Shown piece after piece: positions 701 to 45,232 of a stretch of DNA of 64,000 bases. The DNA comes from Shigella phage Henu12. Made by a program: the position numbers and the translations under genes. The notes beneath the pieces are model-generated. The model did no database searches. It saw nothing but the letters and a program-made list of their open reading frames with translations, and was not told where the DNA came from. The stretch's first letter is position 1; each line of letters opens with the position of its first letter. The stretch lies in sequence record OQ834936. One strand, written 5' to 3'.

Positions 701-784
701 TTCAGATTCTCCAGTTTAGGATTGTTGGTAAAGCTCTTTATCTGGGGCTTAAGATACTAGCTTTTAAACCCCATGTAAAGTACT
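701..784 (-). promoter_or_regulatory. repeated intergenic cassette copy A2: promoter (-35 TTTACA 779-774, -10 TATCTT 756-751), stem-loop 745-772, conserved leader/RBS
   Basis: Direct repeat of the 230-319 element; conserved tail CCAACAATCCTAAACTGGAGAATCTGAA immediately before the ATG. Confidence 0.5.
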
Positions 785-9573: not shown

Positions 9574-9601
9574 TATATAATTTTATAGATGCCACTGTCA
9601 A
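9574..9601 (-). promoter_or_regulatory. sigma70-like promoter TTGACA-N16-TATATA for rIIA
   Basis: -35 at 9601-9596, -10 at 9579-9574, then AGGAGA RBS and the rIIA ATG at 9540. Confidence 0.55.
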
Positions 9602-31649: not shown

Positions 31650-31908
31650 GATTGCCTCTGTTAAGTATCTATAAAGATTTTAATCTCTTATCTTTATGTA
31701 TGTTATACATATAACTTTAAAGCTTTTTAAAAGCTATTAAAAATCTTTTAAGACTTTTAAAGAAACTGTATAGTTAATCTATAAAGGGAGTCTATTAAGA
31801 TAAAACCCACTTCGAAAAGACTAACACCTTGTCAAGTAGTTTGTCAACTTGCTTTTTGCAGAAAATTGCTGTAGGGTATTATCCAGAATGATTTGAGAGG
31901 GAGTAAAA
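31650..31908. promoter_or_regulatory. AT-rich divergent intergenic region with short repeats and two TTGTCAA copies
   Basis: Strand-switch point between the minus and plus blocks; near-palindrome AGCTTTTTAAAAGCT. Confidence 0.5.
31855..31882 (+). promoter_or_regulatory. candidate sigma70-like promoter TTTGCA-N16-TATTAT for the DNA polymerase gene
   Basis: Read on plus strand; followed by GAGGGAG RBS and ATG at 31909. Confidence 0.4.
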
Positions 31909-34608
31909 ATGGACAATGTAGATTTCGAAAAATTACATTTGGTTGGTGATACAGAAACTGATGGGTTGCTCCTTGAGTTTACAAAAGCACACGTAATGGC
32001 TTTCGCAGACTATAAAGATGACAGTGATGAACCTGCTGTGTGGGTTTTCACTGATGAGCCTATTCTTGGTCACAAGTATACAAAATACATCAAAGGTGGT
32101 CTGCGTGAAGGTGTTGAGTTTGCACTGAAAGCTAAACGTCTTTGTATCCACAATGGTCTTGGTTATGACTGGTGGGTGTTTAATCACATTGCACCTGACC
32201 TGTGGAACTTTGAGAATCCTAAGTGTAAGCCTTGGAGTGACTTCTTTCAGGATTCACTTATCCAATCTCGCGTACAGTGGATGGATAGACCTACACCAAA
32301 AGGTTACAAAGGTGCTCATGGTTTGGCTGCATGGGGTGCTCGTGTTGGTGTTCGTAAACCAGAGATTGAAGAGTGGGGTGTATGGAATGCAGAGATTCTT
32401 ACTCGTGTTGTAGAAGATATTAAGATTAACGCCAAAACTAAACGTGCTCTTGATAATGAGTACCTTAAGCTTAAGAAGTGTGGTGTTGACACTTATGAAA
32501 CCTATATGCGAGCTAAAGAAACATCTTTCTGGATGAGCCAGCAAGCTATCAACGGTTGGAAAGCTGATGTAGAACTTATGCAGTTCCATGTTAAAGAACT
32601 TGACAAGTTAACTAATGAGTTAGCTGCTGAGGTTGAGCCACACCTGCCACCAACTATCAAGACAAAAGGTAAGGTCACAGGTGAAGAGTTTGCTAAGTCT
32701 TGGAATGAGTATGTGGATACATTTGGTCACGTTGACGGCTTAAAAAGGATTACCAAGTACCCTAAGACAAAGTATCGTGAACAGATGCGTGAAGGTGAGT
32801 TGAAGCAATACCCTATCAAGCCATATGGAAAGCCAACTACAAAGATTTTTAACGTTGAGAAACGTAACTGCTACACACCAACTAATACGGTTACCAAAGA
32901 AGAGTACCCTGAAGGTTTCGTAGCAATGAAAGATGCTCGTGCAGTTTGTAATGAACTGAATGAGAAGATTGGGAAGAAGTGTAAAGATTGGAAACCAGTT
33001 AAGACTGTGAAGATTGTGAAGTACTATAATGTGCATGTTGTAAATCACTTCGAGTTGGAGTCAAGTCGCTACACTGGTTTGATTGATGCACCATTCACAC
33101 CAATTGAGTTTGAAGTTTCACGAATGACTCAGGTAGCTGTGGTGAAGGATTACTTAAAATCTGTTGGTTGGATTCCTGATGATTGGAACTACAAAAAAGA
33201 TTCTGATGGTCGTCCGGTTAAGGTTTGCAGATTCAAAGACAACAAAAAGATGATTCGCAAACATCCTAAGTGGGATGAGATGGTTGAGCGTTGTGGGTTG
33301 AACTATATTGAGCATGAAGGTGTCTATTACATCGAGCATAACTGGTCTGTTAAGAAGTACACAGATGTGCTTGAGCCTTGCTTGATTAGGACTTCACCAA
33401 AGCTTACAGAGTCTTCTTATGATACAATCGAAGGTGAGCTTGGACAGAAGATTGCGAAGTACTATACTTTGATGCACCGACGCAGGACTATTGAGAACTC
33501 AAAGGATGATGAGAAAGGTTGGCTGAACCAGATTCGTCCAGATGGTCGTTTGAGTGCAGGTGCAATGGTGTTTGGTACTTCTACTGGACGTATGACTCAG
33601 TATGGTATTGTAAACGTACCTTCTGGTGCTGCTGTTTACGGTGAGCCAATGAGGGCAGTGTGGATTTGTGAAGAGGGAACCAACGTAGTATCTGTTGATA
33701 TGAACTCTGCACAGCTTGTACTACTCTGTAACTTCATGGGTGATAAAGACTTCACCAAAGCGGTAACAGAGGGTAAAGAAGAGATTGAGTTTGTTCGTCA
33801 AGAGGATGGAAGATACTACTGCAAACACTTTGACCAGTATCTGAATCCAGAGATTGACAAGTATCTGCGTTATGACTCTGAAAACGATTTGTACGTAGTT
33901 TACTCAGGGACTGATGCTCACACTCTGAACAGTATCTACTTCAGCCTTAATGATGAGCAAGATATCTTGACTTGTCGTGCTACTCAGGATGAGAATCTTC
34001 TTCATGAGATTAGCAAGGGACGTAAGAAAGCTAAGAATGGTATCTATGCCCTGTTGTTCGGTGCAGGTGATGAGAAGTTTGCTAAAACAATTAAAGCAGC
34101 AACTACTCAGGAAGGTGCATTGACTAAGCAGACTTACTTTGTGCGCTTGCCGAAGATTAAGAAACTGTTAGACAACTTGGAAGCTGATTTCAAAGCAACT
34201 AAGAAAGCACTTGAAGAGGTGTTTGGTAAAACTGCTGCGATAGCTAAAGGTGGTTTTGTGAAGGTTGCTGGAGCTTGGCTGTGGTGTAAGTCTCCACACA
34301 AGCTGTTAAATTACCTTTTGATGGGTTCAGAAAGTCAAGTCCAGAATGAAGCAATTAACCTTGCATGTCGTCGTATGATTGATGAAGGTTTGATGAAGTT
34401 GAATGGTCGTAAACCAGCTATTGGCGCTCGCTTACTCTGTGCTTACCACGACGAAACAAGTTGGGAATGTCCAGAGCACATGACAGCAGATGTGAAAGCA
34501 GTAACTGACTGGTATTATGGTCAAGCATCTAAGAACCTTGGACTAAGGAAAGAAACCTTGGTAACAGGTACTGGTAAAGTTGGTAAGAGCTGGTATGAGG
34601 TACATTGA
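31909..34608 (+). CDS. DNA polymerase, family A (T7 gp5-like) with 3'-5' exonuclease domain
   Basis: DTETDG exo motif; HGLAAWGARVG, YALLFGAGDEK and HDE blocks resemble T7 DNA polymerase. Confidence 0.9.
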   Translation: MDNVDFEKLHLVGDTETDGLLLEFTKAHVMAFADYKDDSDEPAVWVFTDEPILGHKYTKYIKGGLREGVEFALKAKRLCIHNGLGYDWWVFNHIAPDLWNFENPKCKPWSDFFQDSLIQSRVQWMDRPTPKGYKGAHGLAAWGARVGVRKPEIEEWGVWNAEILTRVVEDIKINAKTKRALDNEYLKLKKCGVDTYETYMRAKETSFWMSQQAINGWKADVELMQFHVKELDKLTNELAAEVEPHLPPTIKTKGKVTGEEFAKSWNEYVDTFGHVDGLKRITKYPKTKYREQMREGELKQYPIKPYGKPTTKIFNVEKRNCYTPTNTVTKEEYPEGFVAMKDARAVCNELNEKIGKKCKDWKPVKTVKIVKYYNVHVVNHFELESSRYTGLIDAPFTPIEFEVSRMTQVAVVKDYLKSVGWIPDDWNYKKDSDGRPVKVCRFKDNKKMIRKHPKWDEMVERCGLNYIEHEGVYYIEHNWSVKKYTDVLEPCLIRTSPKLTESSYDTIEGELGQKIAKYYTLMHRRRTIENSKDDEKGWLNQIRPDGRLSAGAMVFGTSTGRMTQYGIVNVPSGAAVYGEPMRAVWICEEGTNVVSVDMNSAQLVLLCNFMGDKDFTKAVTEGKEEIEFVRQEDGRYYCKHFDQYLNPEIDKYLRYDSENDLYVVYSGTDAHTLNSIYFSLNDEQDILTCRATQDENLLHEISKGRKKAKNGIYALLFGAGDEKFAKTIKAATTQEGALTKQTYFVRLPKIKKLLDNLEADFKATKKALEEVFGKTAAIAKGGFVKVAGAWLWCKSPHKLLNYLLMGSESQVQNEAINLACRRMIDEGLMKLNGRKPAIGARLLCAYHDETSWECPEHMTADVKAVTDWYYGQASKNLGLRKETLVTGTGKVGKSWYEVH

Positions 34609-35120
34609 TGCGAGATTGTGGATTCACACATGAACAGTTAAAGTCTTGGTTAAACTATGACCCCGAAACAGGGGTCTTAACGTGGATTGGCAGGCCTCCA
34701 CATAGTAGTAGGGTGGTTATTGGGAGCCAAGCCGGAGCAATCAAGCGCACAAGGTCTGGTGTGTATATGCACACACAGATTTTAGGATACAGGACAGGCA
34801 ATCACCGAATTGCTTGGTTCTGGATGACAGGCAAGTGGCCTGATAAACACATTGACCACAAAGATGGAGATGGTTTGAATAACGCTTGGGACAATCTCAG
34901 GGAGGCCACAAAAGAACAGAACATGTCTAATAGGAGACAACCCAGAACATCAAAAAACTTAAAAGGTACAAGTAGAAGCAAGTCTGGTAAGTGGATAGCC
35001 CAGATTAACCATAATGGCAAGACTATACATATAGGTACATACACAACAGAAGAAGAAGCCCATAAAGCTTACTGTGAAGCTGCTATTAAACTCCACGGAG
35101 AGTTTGCAAAACTAAGTTGA
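34605..35120 (+). CDS. HNH homing endonuclease with AP2-like domain
   Basis: YDPETGVLTW, IDHKDGDGLNNAWDNLREATKEQN and AP2-like C-terminus; ATGA overlap with the polymerase stop. Confidence 0.7.
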   Translation: MMRDCGFTHEQLKSWLNYDPETGVLTWIGRPPHSSRVVIGSQAGAIKRTRSGVYMHTQILGYRTGNHRIAWFWMTGKWPDKHIDHKDGDGLNNAWDNLREATKEQNMSNRRQPRTSKNLKGTSRSKSGKWIAQINHNGKTIHIGTYTTEEEAHKAYCEAAIKLHGEFAKLS

Positions 35121-35171
35121 CAAGGTGCTCATGGAAGAGTACCTTATACTATATCTTGTATAGGAGGTTAC

Positions 35172-35390
35172 ATGACACTTTCAGACGTTATCCAACAACT
35201 TCAGGTAAGTGGTTACACTCAAGAGCAAATTGATGAGCTAAACATCATATCCATGCCAAACCGTTTTGTTAAAGCTTTTGGGTTAGAAGTTGTAAGGATG
35301 GCACATATACTCATTGTGGATGGTCTTCTTATCAAAGACAGAACTGGTGCTTTGAAAGGTAAGAGAATCGATATCACGGAGATATTATGA
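35172..35390 (+). CDS. hypothetical protein (72 aa)
   Basis: ORF track; AGGAGG RBS. Confidence 0.45.
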   Translation: MTLSDVIQQLQVSGYTQEQIDELNIISMPNRFVKAFGLEVVRMAHILIVDGLLIKDRTGALKGKRIDITEIL

Positions 35391-35596
35391 GTCACCGTGG
35401 TAGAACTCATCTTGCCATGATGCAAGGGGCTTCAAAAGAGACTATCAAGAATCGTAAGAAAACTCTTTTTGACAGAATGAATAGACTCATTGACAATGCA
35501 AGTCTACCTAACTCTGAAAAGGTTTTCTTGAAAGGGAATCTGAAGAGTATTGCACAGGAACTTATTGACATTGAATTTTGGAGACACCAAAAATGA
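35387..35596 (+). CDS. hypothetical protein (69 aa)
   Basis: ORF track. Confidence 0.45.
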   Translation: MSHRGRTHLAMMQGASKETIKNRKKTLFDRMNRLIDNASLPNSEKVFLKGNLKSIAQELIDIEFWRHQK

Positions 35597-35796
35597 CTTA
35601 TGAAGAAGCTATTGAAGCCATGAAGAGTGGTCACAAAGTACGTAATGAAAATTTCACATCTGATGAGTTCTTCGAAATGAAAGATGGGAAGATTGTCTGT
35701 GAAATGGGTTACCCAATGGCTACATGGTATAAGGGAGAACCTTGGCAGAAAACTGGATGGAGTATCTTTAATGAAATTTTACACCATTTGGGGTAG
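35578..35796 (+). CDS. hypothetical protein (72 aa)
   Basis: ORF track; preferred over the overlapping 35684-35914 frame. Confidence 0.4.
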   Translation: METPKMTYEEAIEAMKSGHKVRNENFTSDEFFEMKDGKIVCEMGYPMATWYKGEPWQKTGWSIFNEILHHLG

Positions 35797-35903
35797 AGTC
35801 GGTAAAGGTTATGACTGGATTCTCCTTAAAACAAATGTTAAAAGTAATGAGATAGTTTACTACAAAGTCTATTACCATAAAACTTTTAGAGAGGTAGAGT
35901 ATC

Positions 35904-36155
35904 GTGAGCAGTAGAGAAGAAGAAGCTTTAGCAATCTTCAAGAATGAAGATAAATCAATATCTTTTGTATCAGAGGCTTGGTGCAGGGGCTTAGGTTATG
36001 ATTGGTATCTCTTCTTATGTGCTAAGAAAGATGTTAAACCAGTTGATGAAACCCGATTCAAAGAACTGTATACTGTCTGCCAAGAGGGTTATGAAGAACA
36101 CTACGAAGGCTCTTTGAATCCTGTAAATTCAAAAGCTTCAGATTTATTTTATTGA
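35904..36155 (+). CDS. hypothetical protein (83 aa)
   Basis: ORF track. Confidence 0.45.
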   Translation: MSSREEEALAIFKNEDKSISFVSEAWCRGLGYDWYLFLCAKKDVKPVDETRFKELYTVCQEGYEEHYEGSLNPVNSKASDLFY

Positions 36156-36165
36156 GAGGTCTAAA

Positions 36166-36402
36166 ATGTTAAAATTATTGATACCAGCTTTAGTAGTTCT
36201 ACTAGTTGGGTGTAACCCTTCTTACGAGAATAAGGATGCTTCTTACAGACTTCCTCCAGAAATGCAAGACTGCAAGATTTATAAGCTTAATGGTGATGCA
36301 ACTAGCAGGGATGTTATTGTAGTTCGCTGTCCAAATTCTCAGACGACTACTTCTTACAAGTATGGAAAGAATAGTCAGTCACATACTACTGTTTTTGATT
36401 GA
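36166..36402 (+). CDS. putative lipoprotein (signal peptide ending LLVGC)
   Basis: Lipobox-like LVGC after a hydrophobic signal. Confidence 0.5.
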   Translation: MLKLLIPALVVLLVGCNPSYENKDASYRLPPEMQDCKIYKLNGDATSRDVIVVRCPNSQTTTSYKYGKNSQSHTTVFD

Positions 36403-36412
36403 GGATATTAAT

Positions 36413-36619
36413 ATGCAGGTTCTGGTAAATTTTATCTATAAGTATGAAAACATCTTCAGCACCATGACTGAAGGTCAACGCAATCCAGTTATCCCACGGG
36501 AAGGGGAGATTGTTGAGATTAATGACTGGAACCACAGAGTTGCAGAGGTCAAGCATAAACTTAAAGATGGTTATGACCACCAAGTTGTAAATGTGTATTT
36601 AGAAGGTAAGTGGCAATGA
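36413..36619 (+). CDS. hypothetical protein (68 aa)
   Basis: Start set at internal Met with GAGGA RBS (track start 36362). Confidence 0.4.
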   Translation: MQVLVNFIYKYENIFSTMTEGQRNPVIPREGEIVEINDWNHRVAEVKHKLKDGYDHQVVNVYLEGKWQ

Positions 36620-36710
36620 GCATCTTACATATCATCTCTGAAGATTTTGGAGGGTGCTCTTGGCACTCATTTTTCACAAAAGGTTGTCTAGCTTGTGAGG
36701 CACGTAAAAA

Positions 36711-37811
36711 ATGACAATTCTGTACAAACAAAACAAAGATGGTTCTTTCAACGTTTGGTCATGTGTTGCTGTAGGTGATAAAGTTGTTACAACCTACGGT
36801 AAAGAAAATGGCAAGATGATGTTCGAAGAGTACACAGCAGAACCAAAGAACATTGGTAAGAAGAATGAGCGTAATGCTGAACAGCAAGCTCTCTTTGAAG
36901 TTGCTGCTAAGTACAAGAAGCAGGTTGACCGTAAAGGGTATGCTTACACAAAGTCTGAAGCAGAGAATGTTGAGAAGGTTGGTGTACAGCTTGCTCAGGA
37001 TGCTTCCAAGATAAGTCACAAGAAGTATCTGGTATTCCCTGCCGATGCTCAACCTAAACTTGATGGTGTTCGTTGCAGGATTTCAAGAGATGCTGACTCA
37101 GAAAGTTTTACGGCATATTCTCGTGAGAACACGGTATACAACATTCCTGTAGAGTTGATTCCTGATGTTCTTCTTATGCTGAAACTGCACAAAGATGTTG
37201 AGGATTTCGATGGTGAGATTTATGCTCATGGTTGGGACTTGGAAGATATTGTATCTATGATTAAGAATGCTGACAATCCAGACCGTCACCTTCTTAAGTT
37301 CTACTGGTATGATATCTGTGACAAGACTAAATCTTGGCCTGAGCGTCGTGAAGTTATTGAGACTTCACCTTTAAATGACCTGAGAAATGGCTGTAGAGTT
37401 GTCCCTGTTAAATCTCGTCGTGTTAACTCTTGGGAAGAATTTGACACTGCTCATGATAAGTGGGTTGAAGCGAAGTTTGAAGGGGCAATGTACCGTTCAA
37501 TCTCCCCAGATTCATTCTATGAGTGTGGTCACCGTTCATACTTCTTGATTAAACATAAGAAGATGCACACCAAAGAGTTCACAGTAACGGGTGTGAAGAC
37601 TGATAAGCGTGGTCATGGCAAGTTCGTTGTAGAGACTCTTCCTAACGTCTTTGTAGATGTTTCATGGAAAACTACACACGAGAAGAAAAAGTATCTTGCT
37701 GAACATCCTGAAGAGTTTATCGGGAAGCCTTTAACGGTTCAGTTCCAGAAGATGACTCGTAAGGGTTCTTTACAGTTCCCTGTTGGGCTAGTAATTCGAG
37801 ACTATGAATAG
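36711..37811 (+). CDS. ATP-dependent DNA ligase
   Basis: Adenylation motif I KLDGVR and overall size (366 aa) typical of phage ligases. Confidence 0.75.
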   Translation: MTILYKQNKDGSFNVWSCVAVGDKVVTTYGKENGKMMFEEYTAEPKNIGKKNERNAEQQALFEVAAKYKKQVDRKGYAYTKSEAENVEKVGVQLAQDASKISHKKYLVFPADAQPKLDGVRCRISRDADSESFTAYSRENTVYNIPVELIPDVLLMLKLHKDVEDFDGEIYAHGWDLEDIVSMIKNADNPDRHLLKFYWYDICDKTKSWPERREVIETSPLNDLRNGCRVVPVKSRRVNSWEEFDTAHDKWVEAKFEGAMYRSISPDSFYECGHRSYFLIKHKKMHTKEFTVTGVKTDKRGHGKFVVETLPNVFVDVSWKTTHEKKKYLAEHPEEFIGKPLTVQFQKMTRKGSLQFPVGLVIRDYE

Positions 37812-37819
37812 AGGCCAGT

Positions 37820-37969
37820 ATGTTTAGTGCAATTGTTCTGTTTATATTTGTTGTTTTATCATTGGCTTACTTCACAAGTAAACTCTTAAGTATAACATAC
37901 AAAGCAGCCTTAGCCCTTACTCTGTTGTCATTTGCAGTAAATGCAGCAGTTAGAATGTATTTAGTATAA
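37820..37969 (+). CDS. small hydrophobic membrane protein (49 aa)
   Basis: Hand translation MFSAIVLFIFVVLSLAYFTSKLLSITYKAALALTLLSFAVNAAVRMYLV; GAGG RBS 5 nt upstream. Confidence 0.35.
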   Translation: MFSAIVLFIFVVLSLAYFTSKLLSITYKAALALTLLSFAVNAAVRMYLV

Positions 37970-37974
37970 AATTG

Positions 37975-38003
37975 TTGACATGAGTAACCTGACGGGTATA
38001 CTA
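37975..38003 (+). promoter_or_regulatory. sigma70-like promoter TTGACA-N16/17-TATACT
   Basis: Good -35 and -10 about 40 nt upstream of the secreted-protein gene. Confidence 0.55.
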
Positions 38004-38046
38004 CCTATATAGAAAATTATATAGGAACCCGTCAGAAACCTCGGGG

Positions 38047-38433
38047 GTGTTTATGAAAAAGTTACTTGTTGGTGTCATTGCTCTTGGTATGAGTTTTAGT
38101 GCAGCAGCTATGAAGATGCCTGAAGCAAACTTTAATGGTATCGCTTTAGAATCTTGTAAGATTGTACAGAAAATCGCTTCAAATGCTGGAGAGTTGACTA
38201 AACCGTTGTCTGCTCAGACTGTTCAAGAAATGACTGATAAGATGGTTGACTACAACTACCATTTTATGGGAGATTACTATGACAGATTAGCAGATGAGAT
38301 GGTCACTCAGAACGTTGACCTTCTTGATAGCAAAGGTATTGAGACTGTAGAAGATGTGAAAGACAACTTTATGCGTGAGTCTTTCAAAGGTGTTCAATAC
38401 TTTATTGAAAATCGTCACTGCATGGGTTTATAA
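38047..38433 (+). CDS. secreted/periplasmic hypothetical protein (signal peptide)
   Basis: N-terminal signal MKKLLVGVIALGMSFSAAA. Confidence 0.5.
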   Translation: MFMKKLLVGVIALGMSFSAAAMKMPEANFNGIALESCKIVQKIASNAGELTKPLSAQTVQEMTDKMVDYNYHFMGDYYDRLADEMVTQNVDLLDSKGIETVEDVKDNFMRESFKGVQYFIENRHCMGL

Positions 38434-38435
38434 TC

Positions 38436-38639
38436 ATGAAGAAGAACATCTGTAGAACAGACTATGGTGAAGTGGTCGATGATGACGGAGTAGTTATTTA
38501 CAGAGTTTGGGCTAATGATTTTGCAACCGTTGTAGAATCTTTAGATAACTACATTAATGGGACTCGTGAAAACGTCAGAGCAACTAATCTTGATTCGTTA
38601 ATAGACACTTCTCGAAAACGGAGAAAGAAAGATGAATGA
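38436..38639 (+). CDS. hypothetical protein (67 aa)
   Basis: ORF track. Confidence 0.45.
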   Translation: MKKNICRTDYGEVVDDDGVVIYRVWANDFATVVESLDNYINGTRENVRATNLDSLIDTSRKRRKKDE

Positions 38640-38931
38640 AGTCTTTGACCCATATGCACCTCAAGATTCTTGGGAGGCTGATAGAGAGGCTGAAATGGAG
38701 AGTTATGTCTGTCCAATGGATATAGAAGAGATGAAAGACTTTGTATCTTTCAGATTCTTTAAAGAGATTGAGAAGCTAAAACTTTCTCAGGCTCAAGTAG
38801 CAACTGTTTGTGAAATCTCGCAGAGTCGTGTGTCAAATATCATTAACGACCCTCAAAAGATTTCTTTAGAGTACATGCTTAATGCTTGTACAAAACTTGG
38901 TGTAAATTTTAACTTAAGGCTGGCAGATTAA
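38632..38931 (+). CDS. helix-turn-helix DNA-binding protein
   Basis: HTH-like segment LSQAQVATVCEISQSRVSNI. Confidence 0.5.
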   Translation: MNEVFDPYAPQDSWEADREAEMESYVCPMDIEEMKDFVSFRFFKEIEKLKLSQAQVATVCEISQSRVSNIINDPQKISLEYMLNACTKLGVNFNLRLAD

Positions 38932-38932
38932 T

Positions 38933-39292
38933 ATGAAACGTGAAAATGCAATCTTTAATGATAACTTTGCAATTGGCTTCTATGGTAAACCAACTCCAGC
39001 AGAGAAACTTTATGGTAATGCAATTCTGGAGACCTTGAAAGAGGTTTACACAACTGGTGGTATGAAGCATACTGAAGCAAACCGTGTAAGAGGTTATATG
39101 GCAATTGGCTCTGCAATCTCTAACATCAAACTTGAAACTACAAGTGCTAAAAAGGTACGAGACCACTTCATCAAAGAGTTGTCAGATAACCTAGATGGTG
39201 TTGAAGTCAAGGCTGTCTGGTTAGATGTTGATGGTCACAACTACACAACTTTTGTGTTTAAAAATGAGGATATCAAATGTCTCTTCCCTTAA
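38933..39292 (+). CDS. hypothetical protein (119 aa)
   Basis: ORF track. Confidence 0.5.
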   Translation: MKRENAIFNDNFAIGFYGKPTPAEKLYGNAILETLKEVYTTGGMKHTEANRVRGYMAIGSAISNIKLETTSAKKVRDHFIKELSDNLDGVEVKAVWLDVDGHNYTTFVFKNEDIKCLFP

Positions 39293-39780
39293 AACTCGAT
39301 TTATACTTTGGGTACAGTGTATTGCAAGGCAGCATACTATCACTACCAAAGTCAGATTATCGTTGTGATTTAGGTTCTGTGAAACGTGCATCACACTTTA
39401 ACAACAACATCTTAGGCTTGCAGACACTTCACAGGTGGCTTGAGGAAGATGGACGGTTGAATGAATATCTTCACCAACTAGAACTAGCCAAAGAAGAAGG
39501 GCATATGGGTTGGGATTTACTACCCCATCTGTACAAGCCTGCAAGCCCTATGGAGATACGCTATAACGAACAAGCAATTGATAGTTATAACAAATATAAT
39601 ATAACTATTGGCTCCAGAGCTTGGAAGGAGTATATGAAACTCCGTGAAATCATCATACAGACTATTGGAAAGCGTGTAGCAAAAGGTCTTGCTTATGATG
39701 AAAAGGTTGACTGGAATACACAAAAGTGTATAAAATTCTTCAAGTACGATAATGACAAGGATACTTTTGTAGAGGTTTAA
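39277..39780 (+). CDS. hypothetical protein (167 aa)
   Basis: ORF track. Confidence 0.5.
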   Translation: MSLPLKLDLYFGYSVLQGSILSLPKSDYRCDLGSVKRASHFNNNILGLQTLHRWLEEDGRLNEYLHQLELAKEEGHMGWDLLPHLYKPASPMEIRYNEQAIDSYNKYNITIGSRAWKEYMKLREIIIQTIGKRVAKGLAYDEKVDWNTQKCIKFFKYDNDKDTFVEV

Positions 39781-39781
39781 C

Positions 39782-40297
39782 ATGAAAATTGGAATTACCT
39801 TTTGCCAGCCTGAAGCAGAGTTCTTGAAATCAATGTTGTCTGAGCATATGAAAGCTACAAATCATACTGAGAAGACATTCTTGATTGACACTAACTATGA
39901 TGCAGGAACTATTGAGTTCATTGATGAAGACACTGCTGACTCTCTGTGTGTTCTTCCTGCTCACTTATTTACTCCAGAGCTACGTGACAGTCGTTCTATT
40001 GAAGTTAATCTGGAGCCAAGTATTGAACTCTACTCAGACATACAGTATCCAAGAAGCTTTAAAGCATTGCTAAACATCTTCATAGCTGATATTGTAGAGA
40101 TTGTTAAGCAGACCGAAGGTGGTCATGTAGTAACTGCTGAGTATGAACAAGGGACTATCAAACTGACAGGTGACTTTGGTTCTATGAGTTTCTTAGACTT
40201 TGTTCCAAAACACTTTGAAGATTTCCTGTCAAGTGAAGTTGATGACCTTGATTTCATACTAAAATTTGAACGCACTTTTAAGGTAAACAAAAAATGA
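39782..40297 (+). CDS. hypothetical protein (171 aa)
   Basis: ORF track. Confidence 0.5.
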   Translation: MKIGITFCQPEAEFLKSMLSEHMKATNHTEKTFLIDTNYDAGTIEFIDEDTADSLCVLPAHLFTPELRDSRSIEVNLEPSIELYSDIQYPRSFKALLNIFIADIVEIVKQTEGGHVVTAEYEQGTIKLTGDFGSMSFLDFVPKHFEDFLSSEVDDLDFILKFERTFKVNKK

Positions 40298-40566
40298 AAA
40301 TCTTAAGCGGAGTATCACAGTGTTACATGAATGATGGTGAGCCAGTTAAATGCTGCCATTGTGGAGGTGAGAACTTCCAAGGTGAAGTTTCAGAGATTGT
40401 CTCTGGCAACATCGCTGAAGAGTACACCCGTTGCTGTGGATGTGGAAAGATTTTATCTTTTTGGGCTTATGGAAGTTATGAACCACAACCTCACCTTATT
40501 TACCATCCGAACAGGATTGTGAAGCGTGTTCTGAACTGGTTCATTATCAAAGGATTTACAAAATGA
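40294..40566 (+). CDS. zinc-ribbon protein (CxxC...CxxC)
   Basis: CCHCGG and CCGCG cysteine clusters. Confidence 0.45.
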   Translation: MKILSGVSQCYMNDGEPVKCCHCGGENFQGEVSEIVSGNIAEEYTRCCGCGKILSFWAYGSYEPQPHLIYHPNRIVKRVLNWFIIKGFTK

Positions 40567-41108
40567 TTAAGCTAATTTTTGCAAGTGGTATTAACGGGGA
40601 ATTTGGCACAGCTACTGGAATGCCTTGGCCTCGTAATAAACAAGATATGGCAGAGTTTAAGAAGCAGACTATTAACCAGTTAGTCTTGGTGGGTAGCGAA
40701 ACTTGGAAGACTCTTGGGAGCAAACCTTTGCCAAACCGTGAGAACCTTGTCTTGACAAACTCTCTTGACTTTTATGGTCTGGACTTTAAAGATGATTCTC
40801 ATTGCAAAGCAAAAGTTAAGTCTGAAGCTTTTGGGGCTTTCCTAAAGTATATTGATAGTTCTATTGATGAAGATGTTTTAGTAATCGGTGGAGCCAATAT
40901 CTTAATCTCAGCTTTGCCGTATGCTGACGTAGTTTTCCACAGTGTTATTAAGGAAGTTACTGAAGAGGCTACTGTCAAGCTACCTTATGAGGGTTTCTTC
41001 CAGTACTTGTATGACACAGAGTTATTTGCTAAAGTACAGTCCAAACCCTCAGAAGATAAGTCTGTGGTGTTTGATACCTATGTTCCACAAGTAAGAGGAC
41101 GTTTCTAA
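40563..41108 (+). CDS. frd: dihydrofolate reductase
   Basis: DHFR-like N-terminus (GMPWP...F) and VIGGANI glycine motif; directly upstream of thymidylate synthase. Confidence 0.75.
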   Translation: MIKLIFASGINGEFGTATGMPWPRNKQDMAEFKKQTINQLVLVGSETWKTLGSKPLPNRENLVLTNSLDFYGLDFKDDSHCKAKVKSEAFGAFLKYIDSSIDEDVLVIGGANILISALPYADVVFHSVIKEVTEEATVKLPYEGFFQYLYDTELFAKVQSKPSEDKSVVFDTYVPQVRGRF

Positions 41109-41109
41109 T

Positions 41110-42009
41110 ATGTCACAAGCAGATGTAAGCTACAAAGCTATTTTAAACCATGTTTTATCAGTTGGTGAGTTGCGTAAAACCCGAACTGGCTCAGTGATTT
41201 CGACCTTTGCTCCACCTGAGTTCCGTTTTGATATGCGTAGTGGATTCCCATTAATCACCTCAAAACAAACATTTATGCGTCAAGTCCTCGGTGAAGCATT
41301 ATGGTTTATGAACGGTGAAAACCAACTAGGCCATTTGCGTTACAGAACTTGGGGGGAGAACGACGGAGAGCGTTGGACTATCTGGACAGATGATTTTAAA
41401 CGTTGGTTGAAAACAACCTATGCTACAGAGAATGATTGGCTGGAGGACGCTGGAGGAAGAATCTACGGAGTACAATGGAGAGCCTACGAAGGTCATGGTG
41501 GCGTTGTTGTAGACCAGTTGAGTAATCTTGTAGAGAAGATGAGAAAGTCCCCTACAGACCGTTACATGCTCGTTAACGCATGGAATGCAGCAGATATCTC
41601 AAGTAACTCTATGGCATTAGCACCTTGTCATGTACTTTTTCAGATTTATATCTCGAACACTAATGAGGTGGATTTGAAATGGTATCAGCGTTCTTGTGAT
41701 ACGTTCTTAGGGTTACCGTTTAACATCGCTTCCTATGCCTTTATCTTGGAAGTGTTGTGTAAACTGACGGGATATACACCGCGATATCTGATAGGGACTT
41801 ATGGTGATACTCAAATATACCAGAACCATATGTCGCAGGTTTTTCAACTTCTTGGTAATGAAGAGTTTCCAGCACCTAAGTTTGAAATTCATCAAGATTT
41901 GAAGTCTCTTGAAGACTTGAGACATATGACAGCAGATGACTTTCTAGGTGGGTTGAAAGGGTATAAACATGCTGGTAAGATTGAAGCACCTTTATCAGTA
42001 GGTAAGTAG
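41110..42009 (+). CDS. thyA: thymidylate synthase
   Basis: Active-site block PCH-FQ and QRSCDTFLGLPFNIASYA. Confidence 0.92.
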   Translation: MSQADVSYKAILNHVLSVGELRKTRTGSVISTFAPPEFRFDMRSGFPLITSKQTFMRQVLGEALWFMNGENQLGHLRYRTWGENDGERWTIWTDDFKRWLKTTYATENDWLEDAGGRIYGVQWRAYEGHGGVVVDQLSNLVEKMRKSPTDRYMLVNAWNAADISSNSMALAPCHVLFQIYISNTNEVDLKWYQRSCDTFLGLPFNIASYAFILEVLCKLTGYTPRYLIGTYGDTQIYQNHMSQVFQLLGNEEFPAPKFEIHQDLKSLEDLRHMTADDFLGGLKGYKHAGKIEAPLSVGK

Positions 42010-42010
42010 A

Positions 42011-42050
42011 AACAAAAAAGGCTCCCGTAAAAAGGAGCCTTAGAATTATT
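42011..42050. terminator. bidirectional intrinsic terminator (GGCUCC-loop-GGAGCC flanked by A- and U-runs) at the convergence point
   Basis: Hairpin 42020-42039 with A6 upstream and U-rich downstream; sits between the thyA stop and the stop of the 42046-42420 gene. Confidence 0.6.
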
Positions 42051-42420
42051 TCTTTTTAGTGCTTTGGGTATTTTGTTCTGTAATTGCTTGCAAAGCTGAT
42101 ACAGATTGTGCTAAGTTGTTAACACTGTCAGAGAACTTATCAAGGGTCTTAGTCAACTTAGCGTTTTCTCCCTTAACATTCTCTAGCTGAACTTTCTGGT
42201 TCTCCATCCCTAATTGTAGGAGCTTCATATCAGACTGTAAATCACGAATAGCTGAATAGTTACCTTTTGAGTAACTATCCAACTGTTGTAACTTTGTGTT
42301 GATAGAAACTTCTTGCTTTCCATCAGAGACCTGCATCGTAGTGTACATGCCAATTACACTGAAAATACCTACAACAATTGCACCAATGTTGTTCTTAAAA
42401 GCCTCTTCAATCCACTTCAT
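42046..42420 (-). CDS. membrane protein with N-terminal TM helix and coiled-coil domain
   Basis: Hydrophobic helix IGAIVVGIFSVIGMY followed by heptad-like Q/L/K-rich sequence. Confidence 0.5.
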   Translation of the reverse strand: MKWIEEAFKNNIGAIVVGIFSVIGMYTTMQVSDGKQEVSINTKLQQLDSYSKGNYSAIRDLQSDMKLLQLGMENQKVQLENVKGENAKLTKTLDKFSDSVNNLAQSVSALQAITEQNTQSTKKK

Positions 42421-42614
42421 TATTTTTCACCCTTAAAAGCCTTTTCCAAGGTATCTACAAATTCATCATCGATAGGTGTGTCTGTTTTACTCGCAAGGTA
42501 TCTTGCAAGCTTAAAGAACACTTTTTCAATCATGTATTCGCTAAGAAGAGAAAGTAGAAGCTTCCAGAAGAATGCCCCAAGATTTTTCAAGAGGATTGCT
42601 AGAATGGTTGGCAT
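42420..42614 (-). CDS. small membrane protein (64 aa)
   Basis: Hydrophobic N-terminal half, charged C-terminus. Confidence 0.5.
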   Translation of the reverse strand: MPTILAILLKNLGAFFWKLLLSLLSEYMIEKVFFKLARYLASKTDTPIDDEFVDTLEKAFKGEK

Positions 42615-42663
42615 TTAATCACCTTACTTCTTGAGCCAAGATGGTGAGAATACCTACTAAGAA

Positions 42664-42692
42664 ATATTAACACCATCTTGACAGTTAGTCAA
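42664..42692 (-). promoter_or_regulatory. sigma70-like promoter TTGACT-N17-TAATAT bracketed by a perfect 10-bp inverted repeat (CAAGATGGTG, 42637-42646 and 42671-42680)
   Basis: -10 lies inside the 24-bp loop of the inverted repeat; operator-like arrangement. Confidence 0.45.
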
Positions 42693-42700
42693 CAAGGTAA

Positions 42701-45232
42701 TTATGCAGTTCTTACCCAAGCCATTAGTTTAATGTAAGTGTTAAGAACACTGAATGCTGCACCAGAACCAGTTGCCCCAGTGTTACCACTTAATGTGTGG
42801 GCATGAGCACCAATTGTCACAGTGTGTGTATGGTTACCATCGCCAGCAGCACTACCAGAGAATCCGTGAGCGTGGTCACCTACAGCTTCTGTTGCTTGAT
42901 AACCTGCAACACCAGCCCATTGACCAGCAGCACCGACATAAGCAAACTGCTGAGAAGTGTTCAGGTAACGAACTGCAACATTATGGGCGTGACCACCCGC
43001 ACCAGCCGTTGAACCAGACACAGAGTGTCCATGCCAACCATTTAATGAAGTCCCAATCGTCCCGTGGTCATGTGTAGATGTTGTTGCAGAGAAACTATGT
43101 GTATGACTTGGAAGATGACCTACAGCAATACTCTTAGAGTCTGAGCCACCTACAGAACCAACATCCTCACCAGTTGAAGAGGCAATTCTAATAGTTCTGA
43201 ACTGACCATTTGATAGGTAAGCCCAAGTAGTTCCTGCAAATGCTGTATTAGGGTTTACATTCGATGCAAAGAACGTTACCATACCAACTGGATAGATTTT
43301 GTTAAGGTCTGTTGAGTTAGAAATAGCTGTTGCAATCTTCTGGTCAGTCTCTGCTTTAGTGTAAGCTCCAACATCTCCAGCAGAAGGTTTCTGGAAAGTG
43401 TTGTAATCAATTACCACATAACCATCAACCGCATTAGCTGGCTTAGTAGATGACACAGTAGGAGCAGAATGGACAGTAATAACTGCACCATTGACACCCT
43501 GAAACTCTACCAGAGTACCCATCGCATATGGCCCAACTTGTAAGTAAACATCATAGTTATCTCCACCAACTGAAACAGTACATACATCAACACCAACACC
43601 ACTATCTGTACTTCTGTAAAGAACAGCATTTAGACCCGATGGGTTTGCATTTCCACTTCTCAATACTAGTTCATTTTTACCACACTGATTAAATGAACCA
43701 ACGTTGAAACCTGTACCACCATAGAGTCTTAAAGTTGCTGTTGATGGTGTTTGTGGCATTGTTACAGTAGCAATTTTCACCCAACCACTGTCATAAGTTG
43801 TTGCATTCATAGCAGTAGCTCTTGAGAATACAGTATTAGCAACACTTTGTGTGTAGTACCTTGCATCAAAGTTAGATACATCTGTAGGGATAACTTGACC
43901 TTCAACTCTTAAAGGTTTATTGAGATAAGCTACATCCCTTAACTCTAGATATGTATTCACCTTATAGTTGTGAAAGCGAATAACATCAGAACTGTCGAAA
44001 TTACCAATAAACCATCTACCAGCACCAGTACTATCTTTTGCAATAACCCCGTTGCTATTCATTGGCTGGGTATTCTGAAGAACTAGTGGAACTCCATCTG
44101 CAAGAATAGTTTGAGCACCTGTGAAAGTGTTTGCAGAGTTATTTCTTGCAAGACTACTTAATGTTGCAGCCGGAATATATCTTGAGTCAAAGTTAGCAAA
44201 GTCAGATGGTTTAACCTGACCAGTCACATTCAGAGGCTTGCTGAAGAAGAACTCTGTAGAGAGTCTCATAGTTGCACCTGTCATCTGGTTAAACAAGTTA
44301 ACATCCTGCTTAGTCCCATCAGGTTGACCAAGATACCAAGACTCTGAACCAGAACCTGCGTAGGCTTGAACAAATACTGCACCGTTTGCTGTAGCTGGTT
44401 TCAATCTAAGCAAAGACCCATCAGAAATAATTGTCTGATAGTTTGTGAAGTTGTTTGCACCTGAGAAGGTATTATTTTCAGTTAGTCTTGCAAATCTTTG
44501 GTCAGCAGCATTCTGAGTGAAGTATCTAGCATCTAAGTTAGAGAAGTCAGAAGGTTGAACTTGACCAGTGATTCTTAGTGTTTTATTGATAGCAATATCA
44601 TTAGTGAGATTAACTAGGGAACCGGTCTTGTTGTTGTAGAAAATAACATCGTCACTTCCTGAATCATTACCTACATACCACCTATTAGCTCCAGTACTAT
44701 CCTGGCCTCTGATATACAACGGTGAGTTCTCAGAAGAGTTTTTTAACCTAATAGCTTCACCATTTGCTTGAATAACTTGTTGGGAGGTAAAGATGTTATT
44801 TGCAGCTAGTCTTGAGTATCTTGCATCATTTTCCTCATTTGTTCTCATACCCAAATCAGCAGGGCTTGGTTTATTTAGAGTATGGTAAACAAATGCTGTT
44901 CTTGTTGCATCAGAAACCTTCAAAGCTAACCCATTAGCGTTAATTTTAAAAGTCTTGGCAACATCCCCTAAAATAATCTCAGAAGAACCTGTTGGGTCTA
45001 ATAAATCTTTTCCACCGTAAGTTAACTTAACAATACCCAGATTACCTGTCATATTCCCGCCAGCTAATTGCAAGAATCTTTCAAGTCTGAATGAAGCTAA
45101 GAAGTTTGCATAGGTCATTTTACGGTCTTCATCACCTAGCATATCTGACCTTTTAATTACTCTCAAATGTAATAGGTCGTCTGAGCGAACTGTATCAATT
45201 GTGTTTAGTTCACTTAGTTTGTATTCAGCCAT
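42701..45232 (-). CDS. tail fibre protein with internal roughly 100-aa repeats and C-terminal His-x-His repeat domain
   Basis: Three tandem modules each ending (V/I)xGQVxPxDxxNFDxRY; C-terminal HxH motifs (HGHSV, HAHNV, HAHGF, HTHTV, HAHTL). Confidence 0.75.
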   Translation of the reverse strand: MAEYKLSELNTIDTVRSDDLLHLRVIKRSDMLGDEDRKMTYANFLASFRLERFLQLAGGNMTGNLGIVKLTYGGKDLLDPTGSSEIILGDVAKTFKINANGLALKVSDATRTAFVYHTLNKPSPADLGMRTNEENDARYSRLAANNIFTSQQVIQANGEAIRLKNSSENSPLYIRGQDSTGANRWYVGNDSGSDDVIFYNNKTGSLVNLTNDIAINKTLRITGQVQPSDFSNLDARYFTQNAADQRFARLTENNTFSGANNFTNYQTIISDGSLLRLKPATANGAVFVQAYAGSGSESWYLGQPDGTKQDVNLFNQMTGATMRLSTEFFFSKPLNVTGQVKPSDFANFDSRYIPAATLSSLARNNSANTFTGAQTILADGVPLVLQNTQPMNSNGVIAKDSTGAGRWFIGNFDSSDVIRFHNYKVNTYLELRDVAYLNKPLRVEGQVIPTDVSNFDARYYTQSVANTVFSRATAMNATTYDSGWVKIATVTMPQTPSTATLRLYGGTGFNVGSFNQCGKNELVLRSGNANPSGLNAVLYRSTDSGVGVDVCTVSVGGDNYDVYLQVGPYAMGTLVEFQGVNGAVITVHSAPTVSSTKPANAVDGYVVIDYNTFQKPSAGDVGAYTKAETDQKIATAISNSTDLNKIYPVGMVTFFASNVNPNTAFAGTTWAYLSNGQFRTIRIASSTGEDVGSVGGSDSKSIAVGHLPSHTHSFSATTSTHDHGTIGTSLNGWHGHSVSGSTAGAGGHAHNVAVRYLNTSQQFAYVGAAGQWAGVAGYQATEAVGDHAHGFSGSAAGDGNHTHTVTIGAHAHTLSGNTGATGSGAAFSVLNTYIKLMAWVRTA

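What the first reader, a model, noticed from the sequence alone, without database searches (positions are those of the whole stretch)
37975..38931. Strong-promoter mini-operon encoding a secreted protein and an HTH protein
Seen: the best sigma70 consensus in the window (TTGACA-N16/17-TATACT) drives a signal-peptide protein (38047-38433), a 67-aa ORF and a helix-turn-helix protein. Inference: early host-takeover or superinfection-exclusion functions with a small regulator.
Basis: partly seen in the sequence, partly recalled or inferred. Interest (0 to 1): 0.35.

Follow-up and report, generated by a model that had tools for sequence, protein, structure and literature searches.

The report
Promoter-in-hairpin cassette heading phage gene block
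This is a conserved host-type promoter, built into a stem-loop, that restarts transcription inside the DNA-metabolism gene block of a Felix O1-like lytic phage; the three genes behind it are real but of unknown function, and they do not form a separate mini-operon.

Summary
The window is a Mooglevirus (Felix O1-like lytic myophage), 100% identical to Shigella phage Henu11 over the part that record covers.

What is confirmed:
- The promoter TTGACA-16 nt-TATACT lies at 37975-38002. It ties at 11/12 with six other sites in the window.
- The exported protein runs 38053-38433. Its start is ATG 38053, not GTG 38047.
- The 67-aa gene and the XRE helix-turn-helix (HTH) gene are real. The trio is conserved in about 258 Felix O1-like genomes.

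What is not confirmed:
- There is no three-gene mini-operon. No terminator follows the HTH gene.
- Nine tightly packed genes run on through dihydrofolate reductase and thymidylate synthase to a terminator at 42018-42041.

What is new here:
- The promoter sits inside a stem-loop whose 5' arm lies in the promoter spacer. Only read-through transcripts from upstream can form the hairpin.
- The stem is kept by compensatory changes, with four different arm sequences in relatives.
- The site is an insertion/deletion hotspot bounded by such cassettes. This matches the PeSL promoter/stem-loop cassettes of T4-like phages.

Protein functions remain unknown:
- The exported protein is a confident three-helix bundle with a conserved cysteine pair, found only in this phage family, and it is the fastest-evolving gene of the block.
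- Toxin-antitoxin membership was tested and not met.

Interest is modest.

The parts
37955..37974 (+). A/T-rich stretch upstream of the -35 hexamer (UP-element-like)
   Evidence: Read directly from the sequence. The AAAGTTG/AAAATTG motif before TTGACA is conserved in relatives.
37975..38002 (+). Sigma-70-type promoter: TTGACA (37975-80), 16-nt spacer, TATACT (37997-38002). The predicted transcription start is about 38009-38010.
   Evidence: 11/12 match. Both hexamers are invariant in 7 distinct relatives while the spacer varies. The start site is inferred from standard promoter geometry and was not measured.
37989..38035 (+). Composite stem-loop enclosing the -10 hexamer. The outer arms are 37989-37997 and 38027-38035. 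The inner arms are 38004-38011 and 38018-38025. TATACT lies in the internal loop.
   Evidence: Perfect 9-bp and 8-bp inverted repeats. The read-through RNA folds at -24.7 kcal/mol, z -3.15, with 0 of 200 shuffles as stable. Six of 9 outer pairs show compensatory double changes, with a covariation score of 0.504 against 0.30 in shuffles (0 of 500 as high). No Rfam family matches.
38043..38047 (+). Shine-Dalgarno-like GGGGG, 5 nt before ATG 38053
   Evidence: Sequence. Relatives carry GGAGG or GGAG at the same place.
38053..38433 (+). Exported protein of 126 aa. The signal peptide is aa 1-20 (38053-38112), with predicted cleavage after AAA. The mature protein is a 106-aa three-helix bundle with two invariant cysteines.
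   Evidence: phrog_4332 at 2e-64. The alignment shows a conserved MKK start, a hydrophobic core and a small-x-small cleavage site at one column, with invariant C35 and C123. AlphaFold pLDDT is 94.6. There is no specific fold match. The family is tiny.
38436..38639 (+). 67-aa protein with a predicted beta-hairpin, a helix and an invariant basic tail (SRKRRKKDE)
   Evidence: phrog_4473 at 1e-39. Found in 256 phage records. AlphaFold pLDDT is 70.6. No fold or family match.
38632..38931 (+). 99-aa XRE/Cro-C1-type HTH protein. The HTH domain is roughly aa 47-93 (38770-38910). The acidic N-terminal 34 residues are almost invariant. Its start overlaps the 67-aa gene by 8 nt.
   Evidence: Pfam HTH_3 at 3e-8 and HTH_37 at 5e-7, both above cut-off. 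phrog_1373. Alignment A2. No relatives in 185,579 bacterial and archaeal genomes.
38933..42009 (+). Six further tightly packed genes of the same unit: 38933-39292, 39277-39780, 39782-40297, 40294-40566, dihydrofolate reductase 40563-41108 and thymidylate synthase 41110-42009
   Evidence: ORF junctions are 1 nt or less, or overlap. Homologues are annotated frd and td in Felix O1 and Moogle, at 66% and 78% identity.
42018..42041 (.). Bidirectional intrinsic terminator that ends the + strand block
   Evidence: It is homologous to Felix O1 terminators t79 and t80.
37820..37969 (+). 49-aa hydrophobic (two-helix) ORF between ligase and the promoter. It belongs to the upstream unit and is lineage-specific.
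   Evidence: phrog_22006 at 8e-7. Present in Moogle and Michonne. Absent in Sf13, EP1 and Felix O1, where the ligase stop abuts the promoter.

Best explanation
The element is an internal sigma-70 promoter built into a stem-loop. It has the same architecture as the PeSL cassettes of T4-like phages: an A/T-rich upstream stretch, a -35 hexamer, a stem-loop overlapping the spacer and -10 hexamer, and then a Shine-Dalgarno site and start codon.

Position and extent (shown):
- It sits after the DNA polymerase-to-ligase part of the rightward DNA-metabolism block of a Felix O1-like lytic phage.
- It heads a translationally coupled run of nine genes, 38053-42009, which ends at the terminator 42018-42041.

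Proposed mechanism (inferred):
- The 5' arm of the stem lies between the -35 and -10 hexamers. RNA started at this promoter therefore lacks that arm and has an open, A/U-rich leader.
- RNA arriving from upstream promoters contains both arms and folds into a stable hairpin just before the ribosome-binding site.
- I infer that the hairpin attenuates, pauses or marks for processing the read-through RNA, so that expression of the distal genes is set mainly by the local promoter.
- The conserved cassette ends also act as recombination points. Related phages carry 0 or 2 extra genes and repeat elements at this exact site.

Gene products:
- The first gene encodes a Sec-exported periplasmic three-helix protein, probably pinned by a disulfide. 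It evolves fast, so it probably acts at the envelope against a host or competitor target.
- The second encodes a small protein with a basic tail.
- The third encodes an XRE-type DNA-binding regulator whose target is unknown.
For: Promoter:
- 11/12 match.
- Both hexamers are invariant while the spacer varies across 7 distinct relatives.

Hairpin:
- Perfect 9-bp and 8-bp inverted repeats.
- The read-through RNA folds at -24.7 kcal/mol, z -3.15, with 0 of 200 shuffles as stable.
- RNA starting near +1 is unstructured (z +0.69).
- The same contrast holds in all six variants folded.

Covariation:
- Four unrelated arm sequences, each self-complementary: CTGACGGG, TAGTGGG, TCCGGTAG and ACATAGCAAG.
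- Six of 9 pairs show double compensatory changes. 81% of cells pair, against 57% or less when the partner is slid. The covariation score beats all 500 shuffles.

Same design elsewhere in the phage:
- Stem-loops lie in the spacer, around the -10 or just after it at 10169, 9601, 7159, 5923 and 13772.
- A repeated early cassette TTTACA-GGGG..CCCC occurs at 259-311 and 728-780, with at least 6 copies in Henu11.
- Moogle and Felix O1 promoter P1 has a 10-bp inverted repeat over its spacer and -10. Their P2 has a 19-nt inverted repeat with the -35 hexamer in the loop.

PeSL definition and behaviour: PMC2839356.

Insertion/deletion hotspot:
- Moogle-type phages carry two genes plus repeats between two cassettes.
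- Felix O1 carries a repeat element there.
- The window, Sf13 and EP1 have a single cassette.

Operon extent.

Proteins.
Against: - No transcription start, RNA end or expression data exist for this phage.
- The hairpin has no U-tract, so it is not a canonical intrinsic terminator, and one search lists none there. Its effect on read-through RNA could be attenuation, RNase III processing, stabilisation or none.
- This cassette is unique in sequence within the window. It is not a member of a repeated sequence family as classic PeSLs are.
- My window-wide test for inverted repeats at promoter-like sites was crude and not significant as a class comparison.
- Covariation rests on only 6-7 distinct sequences in about four lineages.
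- The Felix O1 RT-PCR timing is low resolution.
- The protein functions are inferred from localisation signals and evolutionary rate only.
Confidence: 0.6

Rival explanations
1. A strong early promoter drives a self-contained three-gene operon. Its secreted protein performs host take-over or superinfection exclusion, and the HTH protein is its small regulator.
For: The promoter and the three genes are real. The exported protein evolves fastest in the block, as expected for an envelope-interface factor. The trio is always kept together in about 258 genomes.
Against: There is no terminator or gap after the HTH gene, and six more genes follow to 42009. The Felix O1 ORF87 homologue peaks at 25 min together with the DNA-metabolism genes. 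No similarity to any known exclusion protein was found by sequence or fold.
Confidence: 0.2
2. The palindrome over the promoter is an operator. The HTH protein binds it as a dimer and auto-represses the promoter.
For: The palindromic DNA spans from the promoter spacer (about position -20) to about +27 relative to the predicted start. XRE regulators commonly auto-repress. The inner element (ATATA-N-AAAAT-N-ATATAGGAAC) is conserved in sequence across relatives.
Against: The outer arms change completely between lineages while staying complementary. Meanwhile the predicted recognition region ISQ(S/A)RVSNI is invariant. That pattern fits a nucleic-acid structure, not a protein-binding site. No second copy of the conserved inner element exists in the 64-kb window. 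Only the inner element could still be an operator.
Confidence: 0.15
3. The 67-aa protein and the HTH protein form a toxin-antitoxin-like pair of HigB2/HigA2 type. Alternatively, the HTH protein is a phage antitoxin mimic that neutralises a host toxin (anti-defence).
For: A small ORF lies immediately upstream with an 8-nt overlap. The HTH protein matches Pfam HTH_37 above cut-off. Its nearest named matches are HigA-type antitoxins (NCBIfam TIGR02607 at 3e-5; PDB 7ewc HigA2). It has an acidic, nearly invariant 34-residue N-terminal extension, facing an invariant basic tail on the 67-aa protein.
Against: The HigA score of 23.7 bits is far below the 47.7-bit cut-off. The 67-aa protein matches no toxin or defence family. 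Its predicted beta-hairpin plus helix is not a RelE/ParE fold and matches nothing in the PDB. No relatives of the HTH protein exist in 185,579 bacterial and archaeal genomes.
Confidence: 0.1
4. The promoter match is a chance consensus hit and the inverted repeat has no function.
For: Counts of consensus matches in the region equal the shuffle expectation. An 11/12 match is only about 2.6-fold enriched in the window.
Against: Both hexamers are invariant while the spacer diverges across lineages. The stem arms change in a compensatory way. The placement is intergenic, with an A/T-rich upstream stretch and a ribosome-binding site downstream. The same design recurs at other intergenic promoters.
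Confidence: 0.05

Closest known systems
PeSL cassettes (promoter-early stem-loops) of T4-like phages (Arbiol et al. 2010, PMC2839356; Comeau et al. 2014, PMC4122927)
   Same: A strong sigma-70 consensus promoter with an A/T-rich upstream region. A stem-loop lies between the -35 and -10 hexamers or overlaps the -10. A Shine-Dalgarno site and start codon sit at the 3' end. Insertions, deletions and replacements among close relatives are bounded by such cassettes.
   Different: The phage lineage is different (Ounavirinae, not T4-like). This cassette is unique in sequence within the window rather than a member of a repeated family. Its stem is not a polyG/polyC tract and has no U-tract. Terminator activity and mini-circle formation are untested. 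No paper in the searchable library mentions both PeSLs and FelixO1.
Felix O1 ORF87-ORF86-ORF85 (hypothetical, hypothetical, 'transcriptional regulator') and the Moogle gp45-47 and Sf13 gp111-113 homologues
   Same: Orthologous genes in the same order and the same place, between ligase and frd/td. Identity to Felix O1 is 32%, 53% and 71% respectively.
   Different: The upstream regulatory region differs. Felix O1 and Moogle have two promoter cassettes separated by a GGT-rich repeat element, plus two genes in Moogle. The window has one cassette.
T7 early-region RNase III processing hairpins (from my own knowledge; not tested here)
   Same: An intergenic hairpin of two stems separated by an internal loop, about 47 nt long, with no U-tract, inside a polycistronic phage transcript.
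   Different: No evidence of cleavage exists. The internal loop is strongly asymmetric (6 nt against 1 nt). The overlap with a promoter is not a feature of T7 sites.
HigA2-type / Pfam HTH_37 XRE antitoxins (PDB 7ewc, 2a6c)
   Same: A roughly 100-aa protein with an N-terminal extension and a C-terminal XRE HTH. It is encoded just downstream of, and overlaps, a small ORF.
   Different: The score is below the family cut-off. The upstream partner is not a recognisable toxin. The protein is confined to lytic phages.

Membership tests
Sigma-70 (housekeeping) promoter | -35 TTGACA-like and -10 TATAAT-like hexamers, 16-18 bp apart | tested here: met
   TTGACA, 16 nt, TATACT; 11/12
Sigma-70 (housekeeping) promoter | Hexamers under selection in relatives | tested here: met
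   Both hexamers are invariant in 7 distinct sequences whose spacers differ.
Sigma-70 (housekeeping) promoter | A primary transcript 5' end about 7 nt after the -10 hexamer | not testable with these tools
   This needs 5'-end mapping. Only low-resolution RT-PCR exists, for Felix O1.
PeSL promoter/stem-loop cassette | A consensus early promoter with an A/T-rich upstream region | tested here: met
   Definition in PMC2839356.
PeSL promoter/stem-loop cassette | A stable stem-loop between the -35 and -10 hexamers or overlapping the -10 | tested here: met
   The left arm 37989-37997 ends in the first base of TATACT. The stem is kept by covariation.
PeSL promoter/stem-loop cassette | A Shine-Dalgarno site and start codon at the 3' end of the cassette | tested here: met
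   GGGGG at 38043-47 and ATG at 38053
PeSL promoter/stem-loop cassette | A repeated sequence motif occurring many times in the genome | tested here: not met
   This cassette's sequence occurs once in the window. Other cassettes share the architecture but not the sequence.
PeSL promoter/stem-loop cassette | Insertions, deletions and gene swaps between close relatives are bounded by cassettes | tested here: met
   Moogle has two genes plus repeats between cassettes P1 and P2. Felix O1 has a repeat element only. The window, Sf13 and EP1 have a single cassette.
PeSL promoter/stem-loop cassette | The stem-loop terminates or attenuates upstream transcription; mini-circles form | not testable with these tools
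   This needs reporter assays or inverse PCR.
Intrinsic (Rho-independent) terminator | A G+C-rich stem followed directly by a U-tract | tested here: not met
   The stem is followed by AAACCUCGGGGG. The scan lists no terminator at 37989-38045.
Sec signal peptide cleaved by signal peptidase I | A basic n-region, a 10-15-residue hydrophobic core, small residues at -3 and -1, and no lipobox cysteine | tested here: met
   MKK, then LLVGVIALGMSF, then SAAA|M. The cleavage column is conserved as A/V-x-A in all homologues although the peptide sequence differs. This was rule-based; no SignalP was available.
Sec signal peptide cleaved by signal peptidase I | Demonstrated export | not testable with these tools
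   Indirect support only. Two invariant cysteines are kept even in the most distant family members.
XRE / Cro-C1 helix-turn-helix (Pfam PF01381, PF13744) | A score above the Pfam gathering cut-off | tested here: met
   HTH_3 at 34.0 bits against 23. HTH_37 at 29.9 bits against 27.
Type II toxin-antitoxin, HigB2/HigA2-like | The antitoxin reaches the family cut-off | tested here: not met
   TIGR02607 at 23.7 bits against a 47.7-bit cut-off. PDB HigA2 at E 0.004-0.19.
Type II toxin-antitoxin, HigB2/HigA2-like | The upstream partner is a RelE/ParE/Gp49-type toxin | tested here: not met
   No Pfam, NCBIfam or PADLOC match. The predicted beta-hairpin plus helix has no PDB fold match at E <= 0.001.

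The most novel reading that the evidence does not exclude
Felix O1-like phages may routinely place their host-type promoters inside stem-loops, so that the hairpin exists only in RNA arriving from upstream. That would make each cassette a one-way insulator or processing switch: upstream transcripts are attenuated or cut, and locally started transcripts are left open. It would also make each cassette a portable recombination joint for gene shuffling. This extends the T4-type PeSL principle to an unrelated phage subfamily, with direct covariation evidence for the RNA stem.
Probability: 0.4. Interest if true: 0.45.

Novelty: new member of a known kind. Interest (0 to 1): 0.3.

Why it matters
- How Felix O1-like phages time and partition transcription is unresolved. 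The Felix O1 genome paper says so explicitly (PMC3185647).
- These phages are widely used for Salmonella, E. coli and Shigella typing and biocontrol.
- A promoter-in-hairpin design would explain how promoters and stem-loop or terminator-like hairpins coexist in these genomes.
- It would also mark the joints at which accessory genes are swapped, which is useful for engineering.
- The trio itself offers three testable candidates: a lineage-restricted, fast-evolving periplasmic protein; a small partner protein; and the XRE-type regulator that public records annotate in this gene block.
- None of this is established here, and the genes are already annotated as hypothetical proteins or regulator in more than 250 public genomes.

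Tried and rejected
- **Deep HMM search for the exported protein.** Among 1.84 billion representative proteins there were 7 hits. Two were spurious eukaryotic repeat proteins. The remaining five were all about 122-130 aa with a signal peptide and the cysteine pair.
- **The 67-aa protein.** No Pfam, NCBIfam or PADLOC family matched. The medium-confidence model had no PDB fold match.
- **Bacterial context for the HTH protein.** Two scans of 185,579 genomes found no relative, so neighbourhood analysis was impossible.
- **An operator regulon.** The conserved leader element and the TATATAG palindrome have no further copies beyond chance. A shared 12-mer with the promoter at 9601 is not significant, since 15 of 100 shuffles give two or more matches.
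- **Rfam.** No match in 37700-39000.
- **A class test of inverted repeats at promoter-like sites.** My split of intergenic against genic sites misclassified some sites, and the result was not discriminating. I therefore present the recurrence of stem-loops at other promoters as case-by-case observation only.
- **Literature.** No transcriptome of a Felix O1-like phage was found. The Sf14 physiology paper says nothing about these genes.
Full report
**Identity of the window**

The 1.6 kb around the finding matches Mooglevirus and Felix O1-like myophages (subfamily Ounavirinae). It is 100% identical to Shigella phage Henu11 over the part that record covers. It is 93-98% identical to ESh19, SFPB, Sf14-16, Michonne and others. 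These are strictly lytic phages of about 88 kb. The + strand block that holds the finding runs from DNA polymerase (31909) through ligase (36711-37811) to thymidylate synthase (41110-42009). It lies between two leftward gene blocks. The Felix O1 genome paper calls this block one 'transcripton', genes 96-80 (PMC3185647).

**The observation**

- It is not uniquely the best. Six other sites also reach 11/12. Among + strand sites at that score it is the only intergenic one.
- Consensus matching by itself is weak evidence. The window has 7 such sites against 2.7 +/- 1.8 in random sequence. Looser matches in 33000-43000 equal the shuffle expectation.
- Comparative data make the promoter credible. 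In seven distinct sequences from about four lineages, both hexamers are invariant while the 16-nt spacer is almost entirely different.
- The first gene most likely starts at ATG 38053, not at GTG 38047. GGGGG lies 5 nt upstream, and every homologue begins MKK.
- The 67-aa ORF is a real gene, found in 256 phage records with an invariant C-terminal half.
- The third protein passes the Pfam cut-offs for HTH_3 and HTH_37.
- All three genes occur together, in this order and at this place, in about 258 public phage genomes. In Felix O1 they are ORF87, ORF86 and ORF85.

**Not a mini-operon**

- The gene after the HTH gene starts 2 nt past its stop.
- All later junctions are 1 nt or less, or overlap, as far as 42009.
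- The only + strand terminator-like site downstream is the bidirectional hairpin at 42018-42041. It is homologous to Felix O1 terminators t79 and t80.
- The unit headed by the promoter is therefore nine genes long. It includes dihydrofolate reductase and thymidylate synthase.
- Upstream there is no terminator between ligase, the 49-aa ORF and the promoter. The promoter is thus internal to a longer co-directional block.

**The promoter lies inside a stem-loop**

- Two nested perfect inverted repeats enclose the -10 hexamer. The outer pair is CTGACGGGT (37989-97) with ACCCGTCAG (38027-35). The inner pair is CCTATATA (38004-11) with TATATAGG (38018-25).
- The outer left arm lies in the promoter spacer, so a transcript started at this promoter cannot contain it. 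This follows from sigma-70 promoter geometry.
- RNA from about 38009 onward is unstructured (z +0.69).
- RNA reading through from upstream folds at -24.7 kcal/mol (z -3.15, 0 of 200 shuffles as stable).
- The same contrast holds for all six variants I folded.
- The outer stem is maintained by compensatory change. The arms are CTGACGGG/CCCGTCAG in the window and Michonne, TAGTGGG/CCCACTA in a metagenomic relative, TCCGGTAG/CTACCGGA in Suspvirus EP1 and EcSzw-2, and ACATAGCAAG/CTTGCTATGT in Sf13.
- On the MAFFT alignment, RNAalifold recovers the stem.
- Six of 9 pairs show changes on both sides. 81% of cells pair, against 57% or less for slid partners. The covariation score of 0.504 exceeds all 500 shuffles.
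- The 57% value at slide -1 reflects a one-base register shift in the Suspvirus sequences.
- No Rfam family matches.
- The stem is not followed by a U-tract, so it is not a canonical intrinsic terminator.

**Same design elsewhere in this phage**

- Other intergenic strong promoters in the window carry stem-loops in comparable positions:
  - in the spacer at 7159 (GGGGCT-GAAA-AGCCCC);
  - around the -10 hexamer at 9601 and 5923;
  - immediately after the -10 hexamer at 10169 and 13772, where the stem has a U-tract.
- A 53-bp cassette, CTTTACATGGGG-N20-GCCCCAGATAAAGAGCTTTAC, occurs twice in the window at 259-311 and 728-780 on the - strand. None is expected by chance.
- The same cassette occurs at least six times before small early ORFs in Henu11. 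Some copies have a T.G pair in the stem as I read them, which would be a wobble pair only in the sense-strand RNA.
- The Felix O1 paper recorded these only as '57 bp direct repeats'.
- In Moogle and Felix O1 the ligase is followed by promoter P1. P1 has a 10-bp perfect inverted repeat over its spacer and -10 hexamer.
- P1 is followed by GGT-rich repeat elements, plus two genes in Moogle, and then by promoter P2.
- P2 has its -35 hexamer in the loop of a 19-nt inverted repeat.
- The window, Sf13 and EP1 have a single cassette. Its 5' part resembles P1 and its leader resembles P2.

**Comparison with known systems**

This is the anatomy of PeSLs in T4-like phages.
- A PeSL has a consensus sigma-70 promoter with an A/T-rich upstream region.
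- It has a Shine-Dalgarno site and start codon at its 3' end.
- It has shown promoter and terminator/attenuator activity.
- It has a role as a crossover point for gene insertion, deletion and replacement (PMC2839356; PMC4122927).

I file the element as working like a PeSL. As for membership, five of the six testable features are met. The 'repeated sequence family' feature is not met for this particular cassette, and the activity features are untestable here. No paper in the searchable library mentions both PeSLs and FelixO1.

**The proteins**

*Exported protein*
- It has a typical Sec signal peptide (MKK, then LLVGVIALGMSF, then SAAA|M). The cleavage column is conserved as A/V-x-A although the peptide sequence itself varies.
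- It has two invariant cysteines. They persist even in the most distant members found.
- The mature 106 residues are predicted with high confidence (pLDDT 94.6) as a three-helix bundle.
- Fold searches return only generic helical bundles or its own family.
- A full HMM scan of 1.84 billion representative proteins finds only about five genuine clusters.
- It is the fastest-evolving gene of the block, at 32% identity to Felix O1 against 53-90% for most of its neighbours.
- I infer a periplasmic protein at a host or competitor interface. Superinfection exclusion, lysis timing and envelope modification are all possible. None is supported by homology.

*67-aa protein*
- It is predicted as a beta-hairpin plus a helix, with an invariant basic tail (pLDDT 70.6).
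- It matches nothing.

*HTH protein*
- It has an XRE domain and an acidic 34-residue N-terminal extension that is nearly invariant, more conserved than the HTH domain itself.
- Its nearest named relatives are HigA-type antitoxins, but all fall below threshold.
- It has no relatives in bacterial genomes.
- A toxin-antitoxin reading therefore fails its membership tests. A complex between the basic tail of the 67-aa protein and the acidic N-terminus of the HTH protein remains a speculation.

*Operator question*
- The palindrome is unlikely to be the HTH operator, at least in its outer arms. Those arms covary while the recognition region stays constant.
- The conserved inner element could still be one. 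No second copy exists in the window.

**Timing**

The only data are end-point RT-PCR in Felix O1. ORF87 peaks at 25 min, together with ligase and thymidylate synthase, and ORF81 peaks at 10 min. This does not support 'immediate early', but it is too coarse to exclude it.

**Verdict**

The sequence features are real. The genes are ordinary conserved accessory genes of Felix O1-like phages, already annotated in public records. The 'mini-operon' and its proposed function are not established. The one point of some interest is the promoter-in-hairpin cassette, with covariation support and a PeSL-like shuffling pattern, in a phage subfamily for which I found no such description in the searchable library.

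Noticed in passing
window 259-311 (-) and 728-780 (-); Henu11 locus L042 37574-40930: There is a repeated 53-bp cassette, CTTTACATGGGG-N20-GCCCCAGATAAAGAGCTTTAC. It combines a -35-like TTTACA, a GGGG../..CCCC hairpin over the spacer and -10 region, and a conserved leader with CTGGAG and ATG. It stands in front of small early ORFs, with at least 6 copies in Henu11. The Felix O1 paper listed the equivalent only as '57 bp direct repeats'.
   Followed up: partly
L001 (Moogle) 1090-1330 and 2490-2900; L003 (Felix O1) 2700-2800: Degenerate GGT-rich repeat elements (GGTNNGGTNN...), flanked by short hairpins, lie between the ligase and the exported-protein gene in Moogle and Felix O1. They are absent from this window. 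Their nature is unexplained.
   Followed up: partly
window 37820-37969 (+): A 49-aa, very hydrophobic ORF (apparently two membrane helices; phrog_22006) is wedged between ligase and the promoter. It is present in the window, Michonne and Moogle, but absent in Sf13, EP1 and Felix O1.
   Followed up: partly
window 38405-38434 (+): A second 11/12 promoter-like match (TTGAAA, 18 nt, TATAAT) lies inside the 3' end of the exported-protein gene. Its -10 hexamer overlaps the stop codon, and a start site there would fall after the ATG of the 67-aa gene. It is probably a by-product of coding sequence.
   Followed up: no
window 10169, 13772 (- strand promoters): Promoter-like sites are followed within a few bases of the -10 hexamer by a G+C-rich hairpin plus a T-run. 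The predicted start would fall in or next to the 5' arm, so the terminator would act only on transcripts coming from upstream.
   Followed up: partly
window 31650-31908: The divergent intergenic region between the leftward block and DNA polymerase has no clean sigma-70 consensus. It contains palindromic TATAG-type repeats at 31766-31799. The Felix O1 paper also failed to find promoters here.
   Followed up: no
window 38053-38433 compared with its neighbours: The exported protein is among the most divergent genes of the block when compared with other genera: 32% identity to Felix O1, 45% to Sf13 and 57% to EcSzw-2. Ligase is at 90% in all three comparisons.
   Followed up: yes
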